Shown one piece after another: positions 1 through 59,743 of a stretch of DNA of 64,000 bases (its first letter is position 1; each line of letters starts with the position of its first letter). Location of the stretch: assembly GCA_038087875.1 (NCBI GenBank), contig CM075996.1:374001-438000 (forward strand). Direction: 5' to 3'. The notes under the pieces were generated by a model, which was not told the DNA's origin, made no database searches, and saw only the letters and a program-made list of their open reading frames with translations. Made by a program: the position numbers and the translations under genes. The DNA is from Malacoraja senta (Eukaryota).

Positions 1-385
1 AAACTCAGCGGGTGAGGCAGCATCTATGGAGCGAAGGAAATAGGCGGCGTTTCGGGTCGACACCCTTCTTCAGACCGATGTGAGGGTGGTGGGGGGGAGG
101 GGGCGGGAAGAAGTAAGGAAGAGGCGGAGACAGTGGGCTGAGGGAGAGCTGGGAAGGGGAGGAGAAAGCAGGGACTACCTGAAATTGGAGGTCAATGTTC
201 ATACAGCTGGGGTGTAAACTGCCCAAGTGGAATATGAGGTGCTGCTCCTCCAATTTACGGTGGTCCTCACTCGGGCCATGGAGGAGGCCCAGGACTGAAA
301 GGTCGGATTCGGAACGGGAGGGGGGGGGGTTGAAGTGCTGAGCCACCGGGAGATCAGGTTGGTTATTGCGAACCGAGCGGAGGAC
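1..385 (-). mobile_element. Penelope-like element 3' fragment (GIY-YIG C-terminus plus pLTR)
   Basis: Minus ORF has LRSVRNNQPDLPVAQHFN...HRKLEEQHLIFHLGSLHP, followed by the CTGAAGAAGGG..CCCGAAAC motif. Confidence 0.85.
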
Positions 386-1054
386 CACCTGTGACAATAA
401 AGTTATCCTATTCATTATTCCAATGTGGCTGGTCCAAGACAAATAGCTGATGATAATCATTCCGTGAAGCTGTCGACAATCTCAACCTCCGTGCCGTCAA
501 TGTGTGTACTGATTCACTTCCCGAAGTCAGTCACAATCTCCTGTGTCTTGTTGGCATCGACACCTTGCCAAGGGCATGCCAGTTGAATCTTGGAGGCTCA
601 CCAAGGAGGCAAAATCAAACTGCTCTCAAACTGGTGCAATACCTTACTAATTACTGAGTTGGACATAGAAACATTGAAGCATAGAAAATAGGTGCAGGAG
701 GAGGCCATTCTGTTTGCTTTGGTGTTACCTTCACCCAGCTAACAACGATCTATTCCACCTTTTCCTTGATCTCCATTCCCTTGCTCCTGTTTTCACACCT
801 TACACATCCTTATCTATATACTCCCATAGAAACATAGAAAATAGGTGCAGGAGGAGGCCATTCGGCCCTTCGAGCCAGCACCGCCATTCATTGTGATCAT
901 GGCTGATCCTTTATCTATATACTTCCTTATCTATATACTTCCTTATCTATGTACCACCCACTCCCCTGACATCAGTCTGAAGAATGGGGGTCTCGACCCC
1001 ACATGTCACCCATTCCTTCTCTCCAGAGATGCTGCCTGTCCTGCTGAGTTACTC

Positions 1055-1254
1055 NNNNNNNNNNNNNNNNNNNNNNNNNNNNNNNNNNNNNNNNNNNNNN
1101 NNNNNNNNNNNNNNNNNNNNNNNNNNNNNNNNNNNNNNNNNNNNNNNNNNNNNNNNNNNNNNNNNNNNNNNNNNNNNNNNNNNNNNNNNNNNNNNNNNNN
1201 NNNNNNNNNNNNNNNNNNNNNNNNNNNNNNNNNNNNNNNNNNNNNNNNNNNNNN
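1055..1254. other. Assembly gap (200 N)
   Basis: Run of N. Confidence 1.
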
Positions 1255-1524
1255 AAAGAGAGTGAGAGAAGGAGAGTGAGAGAGGGGAGGGAGGGAGGGA
1301 GGGAGGGAGGGAGAGGGGGATGGAGGGAGGGGGGGAGAGAGAGAAAGAGGAAAGGGAAGAAAAGGGAGAGGAGAGAGAGGGGAGAGAGGAGAAGAGCAAG
1401 AGGGAAAGGGGAGAACTGGGAGAGAAAGAACGGGGGAGCGGGAGAATGGGGAAAAAGAGTGAGAAAGGGAGAGGGAGGGAGGGAAGAGGAAAGGGAGAGA
1501 AGGGGGAGAGAGAGAGAGAGACCG

Positions 1525-1559
<35 letters not shown>

Positions 1560-1618
1560 AACAGAGAGACAGAGACAGAGACAGAGAGAGAGACAGACAG
1601 AGAGAGAGACAGAGAGAC

Positions 1619-1673
<55 letters not shown>

Positions 1674-1692
1674 GAGACAGAGAGAGAGAGAC

Positions 1693-1745
<53 letters not shown>

Positions 1746-1886
1746 GATAGACAGAGAGAGAGACAGAGAGACAGAGAGAGAGAGAGAGACGAGAGAGAGA
1801 CAGAGACAGAAAGAGAGAGACAGAGAGAGAGACAGAGAGAGACAGAGAGAGAGAGACAGAGAGAGAGACAGAGAGAGACAGAGAGA

Positions 1887-1920
<34 letters not shown>

Positions 1921-1993
1921 CAGAGAGACAGAGAGACAGAGAGAGACAGAGAGAGAGAGAGACAGAGAGAGAGAGAGAGACAGAGAGAGAGAC

Positions 1994-2036
<43 letters not shown>

Positions 2037-2101
2037 CAGAGAGAGAGACAGAGAGAGAGAGACAGAGAGACAGAGAGAGAGACAGAGAGAGAGACAGAGA
2101 C

Positions 2102-2190
<89 letters not shown>

Positions 2191-2312
2191 CAGAGAGACA
2201 GAAAGACAGAGACAGAAAGACAGAGAGACAGAGAGAGAGAGAGACAGAGACAGAGAAAGAGAGAGACAGAGAGAGACACAGAGAGAGACAGAGAGAGACA
2301 GAGAGAGAGACA

Positions 2313-2356
<44 letters not shown>

Positions 2357-2633
2357 GAGAGACAGAGAGATAGATAGATAGATAGATATTTATTTGTTGT
2401 CATTTGAACCTAAGTTCAAACGAAATTTTGTTTCTGCAGTCATACAAACAAGTAAAAAGAACCAAGACAACACAATTTACACAAACATCCATCACAGAGA
2501 GAGAGAGAGAGAGACAGAGACAGAGAGAGACAGAGAGAGAGAGACAGAGAGAGAGACAGAGAGAGAGAGAGAGACAGAAAGAGACAGAGAGAGAGAGAGA
2601 GACAGAAAGAGACAGAGAGAGAAGAGAGAGAGA
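1255..2633 (+). repeat. Polypurine tract and compound (GA)n/(GACA)n/(GATA)n microsatellite (main block to ~2388, second block ~2495-2633)
   Basis: Directly visible. Confidence 0.98.
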
Positions 2634-3650
2634 GTTAAAGTGGGATTTCCTGAGCTCATAGCTCAGGCAGCTGAAGGCATGACTGCCAATGAGGGAATGG
2701 ACTAAATTCACTGCAAGATGTTCTGCCAACTGGTTACACCTCCACAGTTTCAGTCAATGATATTTATTTCTGGTAATTTCTCAGCGGCCATATCATCGTG
2801 AGTCGTTGGGGCGGACTGCTTGTGGCGAGGGGAGGGGTGGAAGTGAGGGAAGGAGGCAAGAGTGTGGGTAAGGGGGGTGTTGGGTAAACGTAGTGAAGGA
2901 ACAACGGAGGGGGAGAGAGAGAGATGGTGAGTAATGTATCACATGAAGAGCATGAGATATATCGAGGGCACGAGAGAAAGGCGGGGAGAGAGAAAGAGGG
3001 AGAGACACAGAAGGCTTTGCCACAGAAGGCTGTGGAGGCCAAGTTAGTGGATATTTTTAAGGCGGAGATAGATAGATTATTGATTAGTGCGGGTGTCAGG
3101 GGTTATGGGGAGAAGGCAGGAGAATGGGGTTAGGAGGGAGAGATAGATCAGCCATGATTGAATGGCGGAGTAGACTTGATGGGCTGAATGGCCTAATTCT
3201 GCTCCTATCACTTATGACATGACAAACAGCTGGAGTAACACAGCGGGACAGGCAGCATCTCCTGGAGAAAAGGAATAGGTGACGTTTCGGGTCAAGACCC
3301 TTCTTCAGAGCTGAAATGCCACCCATTCCTTCTCCAGCATTTTGTGTCTATCTTCGGTGTAAACCAGCCTCTGCAGTTCCTTCCTACACAAGAGGGAGGG
3401 GCAAGAGGGGGGGAGAGGGAAAAGACAGAAGTGGGAAGAAACCGGAACCAGGGGAGATACAGTAGGTTTAAGGTGAGAGGGGGAAGATTTAAGGGGCAAC
3501 ACAAGGTAGGAAGGAACTGCAGACGCTGGTTTACACCGAACATAGAACACAAAGTACTGGAGTAACTCAGCCCAAAGGCGTACAGGTTGGCAGGTCGATT
3601 GGCTTGGTGTAGATACAAAACTTGTCCCTCATGTGTGTAGGATAGTGTTA

Positions 3651-3877
3651 AAGGCCTGTCCCACTTTCACAACCTAATTCACGATCTTTTTTACTCATGG
3701 ACATTTTTCATCAGGCTAGAAAAACGCCCCGACCTACTTGACACCACGAGTACCTACGACTAGCATCACGGTCTGCTACGACCTACCTACGACCTCATGA
3801 CGACCATGCTGCGAGTATGTGTCAAGGGCAAACGCGGCAGAGGTCGTGAATTAGGTCGTGAAAGTGGGACCGGCCCT
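3651..3877. mobile_element. PIF/Harbinger-type MITE (internal family 1) in a SINE
   Basis: TIR A(A/G)GGCC(T/G)GTCCCACTTTCAC; TTA at 3648-3650 and 3878-3880 restores the host SINE sequence. Confidence 0.85.
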
Positions 3878-4687
3878 TTAATGTGCGGGGGGGGGGGGGT
3901 CGCTGGTCGGCGCGGACTCGGTGGGCCGAAGGCCCTGTTTCCGCGCTGTATCTCTAAACTGAGTTAAACCAAGAAGCCAGTAGGAAGAAAGCGGTGGGCG
4001 AGCGAGAGTAGAGAGATGGAGAAGATGATTCAAAATGAAGCAAGGCAGCGTTGGAAGGAAGTGAAGATCGGAACTGCAGAGCCTCCAACCCCTTGTAGAT
4101 TTGATCAGGAACACGTTTAATCTTCATTCACTCAAGAAGTCTCACGATTCACTGCTTGAAACACCATTAGACACGAGTCTATTAGAATTCCCAGCTACAC
4201 CATTTTGAATGTGAGATCAGGCCTCGGCAATGACTACGTTCCTGCCTGTGACAGTTCCAATGTAATCTTAAATATTTAATACTCACTGTTGACTTAAGGT
4301 CCCTGAACTGAATTTGCACGGTCACCATAACAACCAGGGCCCACGGGGAATCTTTAAGTTCAAGCAAATTACGTGGTGAAAAACTCTGGCAATAAACCCG
4401 GGAGATCGTCATAGTGAAGACAGACACTAAACATATAAATGCAGGAAAAATGTTCCCCGTGTTGGGGGAGTCCAGAACCAGGGGGTCACAGTGTAAAGAA
4501 TAAGGGGGAGCCCATTTAGGACTGAGATGAGGACAACTTTTTCACCCAGAGAGTTGTGCATCTGTGGAATTCTCCGCCACAGAAGGCAGTGGAGGCCAAT
4601 TCACTGGATGTATTCAAGAGAGAGTTAGATGTAGCTCTTGGGGCTACCGGAATCGAGGATATGGGGAGAAAGCAGGAATGGGGTACT

Positions 4688-7805: not shown

Positions 7806-8932
7806 ATGTGTGGGAAGGAACTGCAGATGCTGGTTTAAACCGAAGATAGACACAAAAAGGCTGCAGGAACTCAGCGGGACAGGCAGCGTCTCTGGAGAGA
7901 AGGAATAGGTGACGTTTCGGGTCGAGAACCCTTCTTCAGACTGATGTCAGGGGAAAGTGAAATGACGGAGAGAGACGGTGACGTAGAGAGATGGGGAACA
8001 AATGAATGAAAGACATGCAAACAAAAAGTGACGATGATGAAGAGAACAGGCCATTGTTAGCTGTGGCCTAGGTGAAAACGAGTTACAGACAATGAGACTC
8101 AACACAGCGGCTTCACGATACGATACGATAGAACCTTAATTATCCCAGGAGGGAATTTGGTCAAAGTTTTGAAGCTGGTACAGCGACTTGGATGGGGGAG
8201 GGGGGAGGGATGGAGAGAGAGGGGGGTGCAAGGCTTTCTGCAGGTTAGAGAAATCAATATTCATACCGCTGGGTTGGTAATCTATAGCATCCGCTGCTCC
8301 AGATGTCAGCTGATCTACATCGGCGAGACCAAGCGTAGGCTTGGCGATCATTTCGCCGAACACCTCCGCTCGGTCCGCATTAACCAACCCGAACTCCCGG
8401 TGGCTCAGCACTTCAACTCCCCCTCCCATTCCGAATCTGACCTCTCTGCCCTGGGCCTCCTCCATGGCCAGAGTGAGCACCACCGGAAACTGGAGGAGCA
8501 GCACCTCATATTCCGCTTGGGCAGTCTGCACCCTAGCGGCATAAACATTGACTTCTCCAATTTCCGGTAGCCCTTGCTGTCTCCTCCCCTTCTCAGCTTC
8601 TCCCTCAGCCCTCGGGCTCCTCCTCTTCCTTCTCCTTCCCGCCCCCCCGTCCCCCACCCTCACATCGGTTTCGGCCCGAAACGTTGCCTATTTCCTTCGC
8701 TCCATAGTTGCTGCCGCACCCGCTGAGTTTCTCCAGCACTTTTGTCTACCTCCGCTGGGTTGTAAGCTGCCGAAGCGAAAATGAAGGGTGCTGTTCCTCC
8801 AATTTTGCGTTTGGGCCCGAGTCTGATCATGAGGAGGCCCAGGACAGAAAAGTGGGTGTGGGAATGGGAGGGGGGGTGGAGTTAAAGCAACCGGGAGATC
8901 AAGTAGGCCCGGCGCGGACTGAGCGAAGGTGT
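7806..8932 (-). mobile_element. Penelope-like element (subfamily A) 3' fragment, host of the 8277-8751 insertion
   Basis: GGAAGGAACTGCAGATGCTGG... end, reverse hammerhead motif near 7912-7940, antisense GIY-YIG tail resuming after 8762. Confidence 0.8.
8277..8751 (+). mobile_element. 5'-truncated Penelope-like element (subfamily B) with GIY-YIG endonuclease C-terminus, 11-bp TSD
   Basis: VIYSIRCSRCQLIYIGETKRRLGDHFAEH..VAQHFN (GIY-YIG with the CCHH motif typical of PLEs), stop at 8570. CCGCTGGGTTG duplicated at 8266-8276 and 8752-8762. Confidence 0.9.
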
Positions 8933-10037: not shown

Positions 10038-10530
10038 GATACAGCGTGGAAAAGGGCCCTTCGGCCTAGCGAATCTTCAATCCGGCAACCTCCTGATATC
10101 CTGGAACAGTTTTCCCCAAGGATGCTCGCTCAGTTTTGAGATACAGCATGGAAACAGGCCCTTCGGCCCAGCAAATCTTCAATCCGGCAACCTCCTGATA
10201 TCCTGGAACAGTTTTCCCCCAAGATGCTCGCTCAGTTTGAGATACAGCATGGAAACAGGCCTTCGGCCCAGCGAATCTATTGCTATCCCGGAAGAGTTTT
10301 CCCCAAAGATGCTCGTTCAGTTTTGAGAGACAGCATGGAAACAGGCCCTTCGGCCCAGCGAATCTACTGCTATCCCGGAAGTTTTCCCCAAAGATGCTCG
10401 TTCAGTTTTGAGAGACAGCATGGAAACAGGCCCTTCGGCCCAGCGAATCTACTGCTATCCCGGAACAGTTTTCCCCAAAGATGCTCGCTCAGTTTTGAGA
10501 TACAGCATGGAAACAGGCCCTTCGGCCCAC
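10038..10530 (+). repeat. Tandem repeat, ~5 units of 85-102 bp built from a SINE 3' tail plus flank
   Basis: GA(T/G)ACAGC(A/G)TGGAAA.. unit starts at 10038, 10140, 10241, 10327, 10412 and 10499. Confidence 0.9.
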
Positions 10531-18025: not shown

Positions 18026-18338
18026 CAGGGTTGCCAACTTTCTCACCTCTAAACAAGGGCCAAAAGGTCAAAATAAGGGACCGATGATCGGCCATGGTGG
18101 TGTCGGTGGTAAGCCAAGGTCCGAAGGTCGGACAGCTGGCCGGGCTGCTGACCTACGAGGCCACGGGCGAGGCTCTGCTGCTGCACTCCATGGGCGGCAC
18201 TACGTCGGGACGGGTGAAGCAGGGACGGAGACGGCGCACTGACCCTCGACCCGAGTAGTAGCAGTCAAATAAGGGACAAGGGCGGTCCCGTATGGGTCAA
18301 ACCAATTTAGCCCAATATACGGGATGTCCCGGCTAATA
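18026..18338. mobile_element. Truncated hAT-like element (CAGGGTTGCCAACT end)
   Basis: One typical hAT terminus plus AATAAGGGAC/TACGGGA subterminal repeats; the other TIR is missing. Confidence 0.55.
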
Positions 18339-42063: not shown

Positions 42064-42161
42064 GATGGTGGAGTACTCGCTGGACCTCCAGAACGTCAGC
42101 CTCTCTGCGATCCGGACCGTCCGCGTTCTCCGCCCGCTGAAAGCCATCAACCGAGTACCCA
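42064..42161 (+). CDS. CACNA1I: Internal coding exon (98 nt) of a T-type calcium channel alpha-1 subunit, domain I S3-S4; best match Cav3.3
   Basis: Translates (G)[32 protein letters not shown](S), the Cav3 IS3-IS4 segment with R/K at every third residue. [10 protein letters not shown] and PLKAINR match recalled CACNA1I better than CACNA1G (MLEY, PLRA) or CACNA1H (MMEYSLDGHN). Acceptor is a pyrimidine tract plus CAG (42061-42063); donor is GTAATT from 42162. Confidence 0.9.
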
Positions 42162-46230: not shown

Positions 46231-46747
46231 AGGGCCTGTCCCCACGAGCATGCGACTGCATGCGGCAAGCGCGACCAAACCGGAAGCGGGGGCCGCGCGG
46301 ATGTCGAGTGATCCCCGTACAGGGCCGGTCCCACCAGCATGCGGCCGCATGCGGCGAGCGCGACCAAACCGGAAGCGGGGGCCGCGCGGAGGTCGAGTGA
46401 GTGACGTGAAGTTCGAGCGAAGTCCGCGGGAAGTTCGCGCGTGACGTGCGGCGTCGAGACGCTGCGTACGGCGTCGAGACGCTGCGTATGGCGTCGAGGC
46501 GGTGCGCACGGCCGTCGAGGCGGTGCGTACGGCCTCAATGCGGCTGCGGGCCGGCAGGCCGTTGCCGCGCGGAAATTTTGAACAGTGTCAGTTTTTCGGA
46601 GCGCCGCGCGATGTCGGGACCAGCTCCGCACAACTCCATACGGCTCCGGCGATCGAAGTGGGACCGGCCCCGCGAGGCCGTACGGCGCAAGCGACCACGT
46701 TAGGTCGTGCTTGCCGCATGCAGTCGCATGCTCATGGGACAGGCCCT
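46231..46747. mobile_element. PIF/Harbinger-type MITE (internal family 5, CpG-rich)
   Basis: ~45-bp TIR AGGGCCTGTCCC(C)AYGAGCATGCGACTGCATGCGGCAAGC; TTA/TAA flanks. Confidence 0.85.
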
Positions 46748-57240: not shown

Positions 57241-58348
57241 TATTGTAACATTGTAAAAAGTATTGTGACGTCTTATACCACTTCAGGGCTCCCGTCAGCC
57301 CTCTTCATTTCCATAACCGCACAGTTAGTATAGTTCAGTGTCGTTTAGAGATACAGCACGGAAACAGGCCCTGAGACCCACCAAGTCCGTACCGTCCAGG
57401 AAATGGGTGGGGGTTGGCACAGGAACGGGAGAGAGGGCAGTGGATGTCACTTAAGATTAGACAATTCCATATTCATACGGTATAGGAGAGAATTACAGAT
57501 GCTGGTTTACACCGAAGCTGGGCAAAAGAATGGGTGACGTCACTTATTCCTTCTCTCCAGAGATGCTAGCCTGCCCCGCTGAGTTACTCCAGCAATTTTG
57601 TGTTTATCCCCCATCTTCATACTGTAGGTTTGTGAGCGACCCAAGTGGAATATCCATTCATTTTCAACATTTTAATTTTGGAACAATTCCGGAAACACTG
57701 CAAACCATGATGCCGCAACGCCAAGGGTACTTGACCGACCAGGACCTAACGCTAGATACCCCCCCCAGTCATGAGCTGAAGGGTGCGGGTAATTTTGGGG
57801 CGGCACGGTGGCACAGCGGTAGAGTTGCCGCTTCACAGCGTGGGTTCGATCCTGTCTGTACGGAGTTTGTACGTTCTCCCAATTGGCTTACGCAAAAATT
57901 GTCCCTAGTGTGCAAGATGGCGCTAGTGTAAGGGAGGTGATCGCTGGTCGGCACGGACTGGGTTGTCCAAACGTCCTGTATCTCCAAAGGTTAAAGTCTA
58001 AATTTGTTCCACGAGTTCATTTGGGGAATTAATTTGCACATAAATGTATAAGGCTGCAAACAGAAGACGTTCTCACCCAACAAACAGCTAGCAATGTCCC
58101 TTTCCTTTAATCATTGTCACTTTTTTGCAGATCTTTCATTCATTGTTCTTTACCTCTCTACATCATCGTCTATATCTCTCCTTTCCCTCTCCCCGACTCT
58201 CAGTCTGAAAGAAGGGTCTCGACCCGAACCGTCTCCCATCCCTTCTCTCCAGAGATGCTGCCTGTCCCGCTGAGTTACTCCAGCTTTTTGTGTCTATCTT
58301 CGGTTTAAACCAGCATCTGCAGTTGCTTCCTACACAGAAGTGCTCAGT

Positions 58349-58369
58349 GGCCCTGTCCATGGTGCTGAA
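58349..58369 (-). promoter_or_regulatory. RE1/NRSE (REST/NRSF binding site)
   Basis: Reverse complement reads TTCAGCACCATGGACAGGGCC, 19/21 to the canonical TTCAGCACCACGGACAGCGCC, with both half-sites and the canonical 2-nt spacer. Lies in non-repeat-looking sequence just after a PLE end. Confidence 0.8.
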
Positions 58370-59661
58370 TAAACTCAACCTGCCTTTTACATTGAATCTG
58401 AAACAGGATCTCGGCTGAAACATTGCCTATCCATTTACCTCCACATGCGACTCCCTCATTTCCTTCATATCCTTCCCCCCCCCCCACCCCCCACCACTCC
58501 TGCTTGCACCTATTTCTCCCACCCCCCTCCCCTTCCACATACATCCTTTCCTCCGGCTTCACCGATTGCACCTCTTCAATCCTCCTGTCACACACCTTCA
58601 GTCTATCCATCCTCTGGCCTTTGTCCTCCCAATCTGCCTATGGAGAAACCTCCTGACTATCAACCTATTCCCTGACAGGCTTGTCCTACCCTCCTCTATT
58701 ACAGCTTTCTTCCCCCCCCACCCTTTACCTCAGTCCCCCCCCCCCCAGTTCCCCCCCCCCCAAGAAGGGTCCTGACACAAAATGTCACTTGTCCATGTTC
58801 TCCAGCGATACTGCCCGACCCACTGAGTTATTCCAGCACTTTGCGCCATTTTTCTTTTGTAAACCAGCGTCCGCAGTTCCCTTGCATCCTTGGGGATGAT
58901 ACAGCGTGGAGATGGGCCTTTCGGCCCACCGCAGGTCACAGGGAGAAGGGACAAAACTCCGCAAGGGACAGCACCCGCAGCCAGAGGACCCGAGGTCAGG
59001 ATTGAACTTGGGTCTCCGTGGACATGCAGGTGAGACCAGTCTTAATCTGGCAGCGTGTTGTGGGCCGAAGGGCCCCCCTGTTCCTGTGCTTCACTGTCTC
59101 CATGGGATCCGACTCGGTGGGATTCACTTTGCAGACTGAGAGGATGATAATTTAACACGGCGAGCTGACGGCTTGGCAAAGGGCCCGCGGTTCCAGCTGC
59201 ATTGCCATCTGGGTTCAAACAGGGTTCGCAGTCAAGTGAACTGTCTGAGAAGGACATTTTGAAAAGTCAGGAGAGAGCTAAAGCCAAAACAAAACAAAAC
59301 AAAGAGGCTGAAGCAACAGGTTGAACTCACTGGGATGAAATATGTAGCGGGTAGGACAGTACAGCTCAGCCCACAATGTTTCTGCCGATGCCAAGTATAG
59401 TTTAGAGATATAGCACGGAAACAGGCCCTTCAGCCCATCGACGATCCCGCATATTAACACAGTCCTACACACACGAGGGACAATTTACCAAGCCAATTTA
59501 CCTACACACCTGTACGTAGTGTGGGGGGACACCGAAGATCTCGGGAGAAAACCCACGCGGTCACGGGGAGAACGGACAAAACTCCATGCGATCGAACCCG
59601 GTGCTGCATGCGCTGTAAGGCGACAACTCTACCGCTGCGCCACCGTGCTGCCCAAAAACAA

Positions 59662-59743
59662 TGGCAGCGGTGGGATTCGAACCCACACCGCCAAAGAGAC
59701 TGGAGCCTTGATCCAGTGCCTTAGACCGCTCGGCCACACCACC
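59662..59743 (-). pseudogene. tRNA-Leu(AAG)-like gene, probably decayed
   Basis: Reverse complement GGTGGTGTGGCCGAGCGGTCTAAGGCACTGGATCAAGGCTCCAGTCTCTTTGGCGGTGTGGGTTCGAATCCCACCGCTGCCA (82 nt). Has a long variable arm, intact A/B boxes and a downstream TTGTTTTT. U33 is C and several CpG-type transitions are present. Confidence 0.8.

What the first reader, a model, noticed from the sequence alone, without database searches (positions are those of the whole stretch)
58349..58369. Near-canonical REST/NRSF site deep in a CACNA1I-like intron
Seen: TTCAGCACCATGGACAGGGCC on the minus strand, 19/21 to the canonical RE1, in a short unique island between two PLE remnants about 16 kb downstream of the exon. 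Established: REST represses neuronal ion-channel genes, and the paralogue CACNA1H is a known REST target. Inference: REST control of a T-type channel gene may extend to cartilaginous fish, and this may be one of few selected non-coding elements in the window.
Basis: partly seen in the sequence, partly recalled or inferred. Interest (0 to 1): 0.7.

Follow-up and report, generated by a model that had tools for sequence, protein, structure and literature searches.

The report
REST silencer site in skate CACNA1I
This is a real, near-textbook binding site for the neuronal-gene repressor REST inside a calcium-channel gene of a skate-like fish, an ordinary feature of vertebrate neuronal genes whose binding and effect here remain untested.

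Summary
The 21-mer is there (minus strand, 58369-58349). It is the window's only match to the published 17-bp RE1 consensus, with a chance of about 1e-4 per window for the exact core. It lies 16.2 kb behind a 98-bp exon whose peptide is identical to thorny skate CACNA1I. It is not part of the flanking repeat. That family stops at 58336 and resumes at 58396, and contigs of four related organisms show single-copy depth beside the site against 1e7 in the repeat. No substitution inside the 21-mer is listed in those four, but this is only suggestive (p about 0.09; 57 of 97 rows hidden; one spanning contig seen). Six mouse sites sharing its positions 2-18 all show REST ChIP signal. Novelty is low: mouse and human CACNA1I already have REST peaks, and NRSEs are in print for elephant shark. 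The one mammalian site annotated by position is 5' of the gene, not in this intron. The skate site is over 58 kb from the start of the gene, where REST repression is usually weak. Verdict: probably a genuine REST site, an ordinary new member of a known class; effect on CACNA1I unproven.

The parts
58349..58369 (-). Canonical RE1/NRSE 21-mer with normal 2-bp spacer
   Evidence: only such site in the window
58337..58395 (.). Single-copy island that holds the site
   Evidence: No within-window repeat alignment enters the 21-mer; depth 13.6-49.6 at 58371 in four runs
58068..58336 (+). Young copy of the 3' part of a very high-copy repeat (Penelope-like by a recalled motif; class not confirmed)
   Evidence: 83% over 276 bp to the copy at 7807-8080; depth 1.8e7-5.8e7 in 58225-58318; 2,192-2,890 contigs per run leave at 58336
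58396..58880 (+). Older, decayed repeat sequence; same family at 58396-58443 and 58762-58879, the middle assigned only by raised depth
   Evidence: profile hits E 3e-4 and 3e-28; depth 200-5,900 in several bins
42064..42161 (+). CACNA1I exon for domain I S3-S4; the only exon of the gene found in the window
   Evidence: human alpha-1I 30/32, alpha-1G 28/32, alpha-1H 28/32; 33/33 to Amblyraja radiata CACNA1I, 32/33 to whale shark; neighbouring exons not found

Best explanation
A genuine RE1/NRSE silencer in the intron after the domain I S3-S4 exon of CACNA1I (Cav3.3) in a skate or close relative. REST's zinc fingers bind the two half-sites and recruit Sin3/HDAC and CoREST complexes, which help keep this neuronal T-type channel gene low in non-neuronal cells and progenitors. 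Shown: the motif, the gene, single-copy status, independence from the flanking repeat. Suggested: retention of the site among relatives. Inferred: binding (from mouse sites of nearly the same sequence), the co-repressor step (established knowledge), and CACNA1I as the target (host gene; its mammalian orthologues are REST-bound).
For: Perfect match to the published consensus, far beyond chance for one window. All 6 mouse RE1s in a 1,166-row table that share positions 2-18 have PWM scores 0.92-0.96 and ESC ChIP-chip first-column values of 9e-6 or lower; one is 20/21 identical (reading that column as a p-value is my inference). Human CACNA1I has one assigned REST peak in ES cells and mouse Cacna1i two; mouse has a 5' proximal RE1 of score 0.957. 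Cacna1i mRNA was higher in all 3 mice with REST inhibition than in all 3 controls (760-4558 against 423-520). Introns are the commonest RE1 location, 29.4%. No difference is listed inside the 21-mer in four related organisms whose nearby DNA differs by about 1-11%.
Against: No binding or expression data exist for this species, and I did not find or check its REST protein. Upstream exons are absent from 1-42063, so the site is at least 58 kb from the gene's start, while REST's repressive effect falls off within 2-3 kb of the start and most bound genes did not respond to dominant-negative REST. Invariance of 21 bp is weak: 0/21 against 18/158 variable control positions, p=0.09, and 25 of 138 control windows of 21 bp are also invariant. 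74% of all predicted sites on the mouse array were bound, so 6 of 6 adds little (0.16 by chance). The mouse expression study raised all genes on its panel. The frog screen lists cacna1h but not cacna1i.
Confidence: 0.55

Rival explanations
1. REST binds the site, but it has little or no effect on CACNA1I: a distal, occupied site that is passive or acts on some other, unseen promoter.
For: At least 58 kb from the gene's start; repression is strongest within 2-3 kb and most bound genes are not de-repressed; only 15-30% of REST peaks are shared between human and mouse.
Against: The 57 bp of island show 1 variable position against 18/158 in the control, p=0.02, which hints at selection. Intronic RE1s of CACNA1A bind REST in vivo and that gene is de-repressed 75-fold by dominant-negative REST.
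Confidence: 0.3
2. A chance look-alike that is not bound and evolves neutrally.
For: About 2 to 5 such matches are expected by chance in a 2.5-Gb genome; one exact copy sits in a GC-rich, CpG-normal metagenome contig where it is probably chance (L002); conservation of the 21-mer alone is not significant.
Against: Vertebrate genomes hold 554 to about 1,900 consensus sites, far more than chance gives at this strictness, and this one lies in a neuronal channel gene whose mammalian orthologues are REST-bound.
Confidence: 0.1
3. The site was carried in by, or grew out of, a transposon: either part of a repeat consensus or a decayed inverted piece of the flanking repeat's tail.
For: LINE2, Alu and LINE1 copies spread RE1s in mammals. 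The left half-site plus its 5' flank resembles the repeat tail in reverse (12/15 to the window's majority sequence, 14/16 to some copies). 60% of the window is repeated within itself.
Against: Depth beside the site is at single-copy level in four runs at 80% likeness, about a million times below the repeat. The resemblance is not significant against shuffles: P 0.13-0.22 to the majority sequence, 0.045-0.055 to the best of 50 copies. The repeat profile gives no hit on the island.
Confidence: 0.05

Closest known systems
Canonical RE1/NRSE bound by REST/NRSF
   Same: Both half-sites, 2-bp spacer, full match to NTYAGMRCCNNRGMSAG, intronic position in a neuronal gene.
   Different: Only the species: no binding test exists for it here.
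REST sites at mammalian CACNA1I
   Same: Same gene. Human peak hg19 chr22:39,956,283-383; mouse peaks mm10 chr15:80,277,712-928 and 80,325,337-469; mouse 5' proximal RE1, PWM 0.957.
   Different: The mouse RE1 annotated by position is 5' of the gene and differs in sequence at 5 of 21 positions; the skate site is in the intron after the S3-S4 exon. The intron that holds the second mouse peak could not be determined.
NRSE of CACNA1H (Cav3.2)
   Same: T-type channel paralogue with an intronic NRSE, EMSA-bound and de-repressed by dominant-negative NRSF.
   Different: Different paralogue; first intron, not this intron; function shown there, not here.
NRSEs of the elephant shark protocadherin cluster
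   Same: RE1 motifs in a cartilaginous fish, found by sequence: five sites.
   Different: Different locus; the passages I saw do not say that shark sites were among those tested by EMSA.

Membership tests
Canonical RE1/NRSE | Left and right half-sites matching the 17-bp consensus | tested here: met
   0 mismatches to the published degenerate consensus
Canonical RE1/NRSE | 2-bp spacer between half-sites | tested here: met
Canonical RE1/NRSE | PWM score above the 0.91 cut-off | tested here: inconclusive
   No matrix was available to score it. Proxy: 6 of 6 mouse sites sharing positions 2-18 score 0.92-0.96, and the 20/21 twin scores 0.957
Canonical RE1/NRSE | Binding by REST | not testable with these tools
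   Only mouse look-alike data
Canonical RE1/NRSE | Silencing of the linked gene in non-neuronal cells | not testable with these tools
   Distance from the start argues for a weak effect
Canonical RE1/NRSE | Conservation above the flanks | tested here: inconclusive
   0/21 against 18/158, p=0.09; island 1/57, p=0.02; 57 of 97 rows hidden
Canonical RE1/NRSE | A REST orthologue in the species | not tested
   No genome held; no REST sequence fetched
Transposon-borne RE1 | Site lies inside a repeat family consensus | tested here: not met
   repeats below 80% likeness and absent from the window cannot be excluded
CACNA1I (Cav3.3) gene | Exon peptide closer to alpha-1I than to alpha-1G or alpha-1H | tested here: met
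   one 33-residue exon only, no synteny
Penelope-like element (flanks) | PLE reverse transcriptase, GIY-YIG endonuclease or minimal hammerhead | tested here: inconclusive
   No Pfam hit, no Rfam hammerhead, fold z -0.5; a hammerhead-like word pattern occurs 18 times in the window; PLEs carry minimal hammerheads

The most novel reading that the evidence does not exclude
This intronic RE1 is conserved in place across cartilaginous fishes and is the counterpart of the intragenic mouse Cacna1i REST peak, so REST has controlled Cav3.3 through one site since the last common ancestor of jawed vertebrates. A milder reading is much more likely (about 0.45): CACNA1I has stayed a REST target across jawed vertebrates while the site itself moved.
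Probability: 0.07. Interest if true: 0.5.

Novelty: new member of a known kind. Interest (0 to 1): 0.2.

Why it matters
If bound and functional, it adds Cav3.3 to the REST targets shared between cartilaginous fish and mammals, and gives one more case of a target gene kept while its binding site turns over. It also gives a compact 59-bp element, isolated between repeats, that is easy to test. It would not change the picture of REST: hundreds to thousands of such sites exist per vertebrate genome.

Tried and rejected
No genome was held for this window, so no genome-wide RE1 count or repeat library could be made. The first structure search used the wrong frame and found nothing. A scan of metagenome contigs for the exact 21-mer gave 5 loci; none shares flanks with the window (8-12 of 40, chance level) or encodes the channel, so none is an orthologue; 4 of 5 come from one CpG-poor assembly. 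No non-canonical or second RE1 was found: one left and one right half-site only, both this site; a 1-mismatch hit at 18136-18151 is within chance. Pfam, Rfam and folding did not identify the flanking repeat. The run search gave shares of 0.05-0.10 for 23 of 24 runs; I used only the four I laid. Lack of cover in run X14 at 59165-59258 and in X24 at 57990-58036 was not used. A paper search for the human gene's start coordinate found nothing. Supplements of PMC2687797 could not be read and file 1 of PMC4499139 was not searched; they may list further CACNA1I sites. CACNA1I is absent from the one supplement of PMC1794552, from the frog screen's supplements and from the visible part of Table 2 of PMC1557810. 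Earlier findings of this scan: nothing returned.

Full report
Observation. Against the textbook 21-base RE1 (recalled) it differs at position 11, in the free spacer, and at position 18, in the weak tail; the next best site in the window is 15/21. It fits the published consensus NTYAGMRCCNNRGMSAG (PMC4430910, passages) without mismatch and is the only such site. From base composition, a match of at least 19/21 has a chance of 6e-5 per window and the exact core 1.2e-4 to 2.5e-4; over a 2.5-Gb genome that is about 2 to 5 chance sites, against 554 to about 1,900 consensus sites reported for fugu, frog, mouse and human.

The gene. A 98-bp exon at 42064-42161 with AG and GT borders encodes the domain I S3-S4 segment of a T-type calcium channel. 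It matches human alpha-1I at 30 of 32 residues, alpha-1G and alpha-1H at 28, Amblyraja radiata CACNA1I at 33 of 33 and whale shark CACNA1I at 32 of 33. The organism is therefore a skate or close relative by inference. No other exon was found in the window (two 200-base gaps lie upstream), so the site is 16,188 bp into an intron longer than 21.8 kb and at least 58 kb from the gene's start. That the site lies within the gene is inferred from the missing next exon.

Is it a repeat? Within the window, 18 alignments of the upstream repeat reach 58330-58340 and none enters the site. A profile from 50 copies hits 58201-58324, 58396-58443 and 58762-58879 but not the island. I laid contigs of 4 of the 24 listed runs, four different organisms, on 57990-59390 at 80% likeness. 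Summed depth is 1.8e7 to 5.8e7 in the repeat tail and 13.6 to 49.6 at position 58371, two bases from the site; 2,192 to 2,890 contigs per run leave the sequence at 58336. A slight likeness of the left half-site to the reversed repeat tail is not significant (P 0.045 to 0.22). The name Penelope-like rests on a recalled motif and on PMC6155905 (passages); Pfam, Rfam and folding did not confirm it.

Conservation. In run X24 one contig spans 58309-58443 with 4 other letters and 1 gap. For X3, X7 and X14 no spanning contig is listed; orthology is inferred from low depth at 58371, and from the fact that in X24 the depth there equals that single contig, so unrelated RE1 copies were not being laid. 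Nearby pieces differ from the window by 1.1% (X24), 6.6% (X7), 7.3% (X14) and 11% (X3). None of the 40 listed differences falls in 58349-58369; one falls at 58371. 57 of 97 rows were hidden; their kinds of change are nearly the same in all runs (41 in common at most, excess 2 to 9 per run), as expected for repeat-consensus differences, but a hidden change in the site cannot be excluded. Against 18 variable positions in 158 control bases (59101-59258), the site gives p=0.09 and 57 bases of island p=0.02; 25 of 138 control windows of 21 bp are invariant too, and the runs share ancestry. This is a hint of selection, not proof. A metagenome scan found 5 exact copies, none orthologous.

Likely mechanism. 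REST binds the two half-sites and recruits CoREST, Sin3A and histone deacetylases (PMC4430910, passages). Binding here is inferred from mouse: in Dataset S1 of PMC2573930 (supplement rows) 6 of 1,166 sites share positions 2-18, all score 0.92-0.96 and all show ESC enrichment; the column meanings are my reading, and 810 of 1,095 probed sites were bound anyway (passages). Against a strong effect, the same paper reports that repression falls off within 2-3 kb of the start and that most bound genes do not respond (passages).

Comparison with what is known. CACNA1I is already a REST-bound gene in mammals. Table S2 of PMC4499139 (supplement rows and passages) assigns one human and two mouse peaks to it; PMC2573930 lists a 5' proximal mouse RE1 with borderline enrichment; PMC6965066 (passages, section 19, supplement rows) shows Cacna1i rising on REST inhibition, along with every gene on the panel. 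CACNA1H has a tested NRSE in intron 1 (PMC11594734, passages), CACNA1A has tested intronic sites, and half of the RE1s of calcium-channel genes are not kept between human and mouse (PMC1557810, passages). NRSEs in a cartilaginous fish are in print (PMC2926608, passages). Only 14% of frog sites in alignable regions have a human counterpart, and the frog tables list cacna1h but not cacna1i (PMC4430910). PMC11025195 (passages), PMC12202048 (one passage) and PMC1794552 (supplement search) added nothing on this site. I found no report of this skate site in the searches (listings only, open-access library).

Verdict. It is most likely a real REST site (binding about 0.85, an effect on CACNA1I about 0.55). 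It is a new member of a well-known class in a gene already known to be REST-bound. Conservation in place with mammals is unsupported. Interest 0.2.

Noticed in passing
window 59662-59743, minus strand: A tRNA-Leu(AAG) gene or pseudogene 1.3 kb from the site (ARAGORN; Rfam 49.4 bits), inserted among SINE-like pieces and followed by a T-rich run.
   Followed up: partly
window 1-64000: Only one 98-bp CACNA1I exon in 64 kb; flanking introns exceed 42 kb and 21.8 kb, and 60% of the window is repeated within itself.
   Followed up: yes
protein P0076 (Amblyraja radiata CACNA1I): The database model starts 49 residues before this exon with sequence unlike the conserved upstream exons of shark and bird CACNA1I, probably an annotation artefact of the long introns.
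   Followed up: no
window 58209-58336: Many contigs of all four runs turn to the opposite strand at the repeat's end, which suggests frequent inverted tail-to-tail copies of this family.
   Followed up: no
L001, L003, L004, L005 (position 1001-1021): The exact 21-mer occurs four times in one CpG-poor, vertebrate-like assembly filed among metagenomes; L004 and L005 share 82% over 88 bp around it, a duplicated RE1.
   Followed up: partly
window 46231-46548 and 10038-10529: A GC-rich element with 89-bp and 20-bp tandem units, and a tandem array of 85-102 bp SINE-head units.
   Followed up: no
window 59118-59152, 59192-59218, 59237-59258: Stretches without listed differences in the three runs that cover them, between clusters of changes; possibly other constrained bases or chance.
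   Followed up: no
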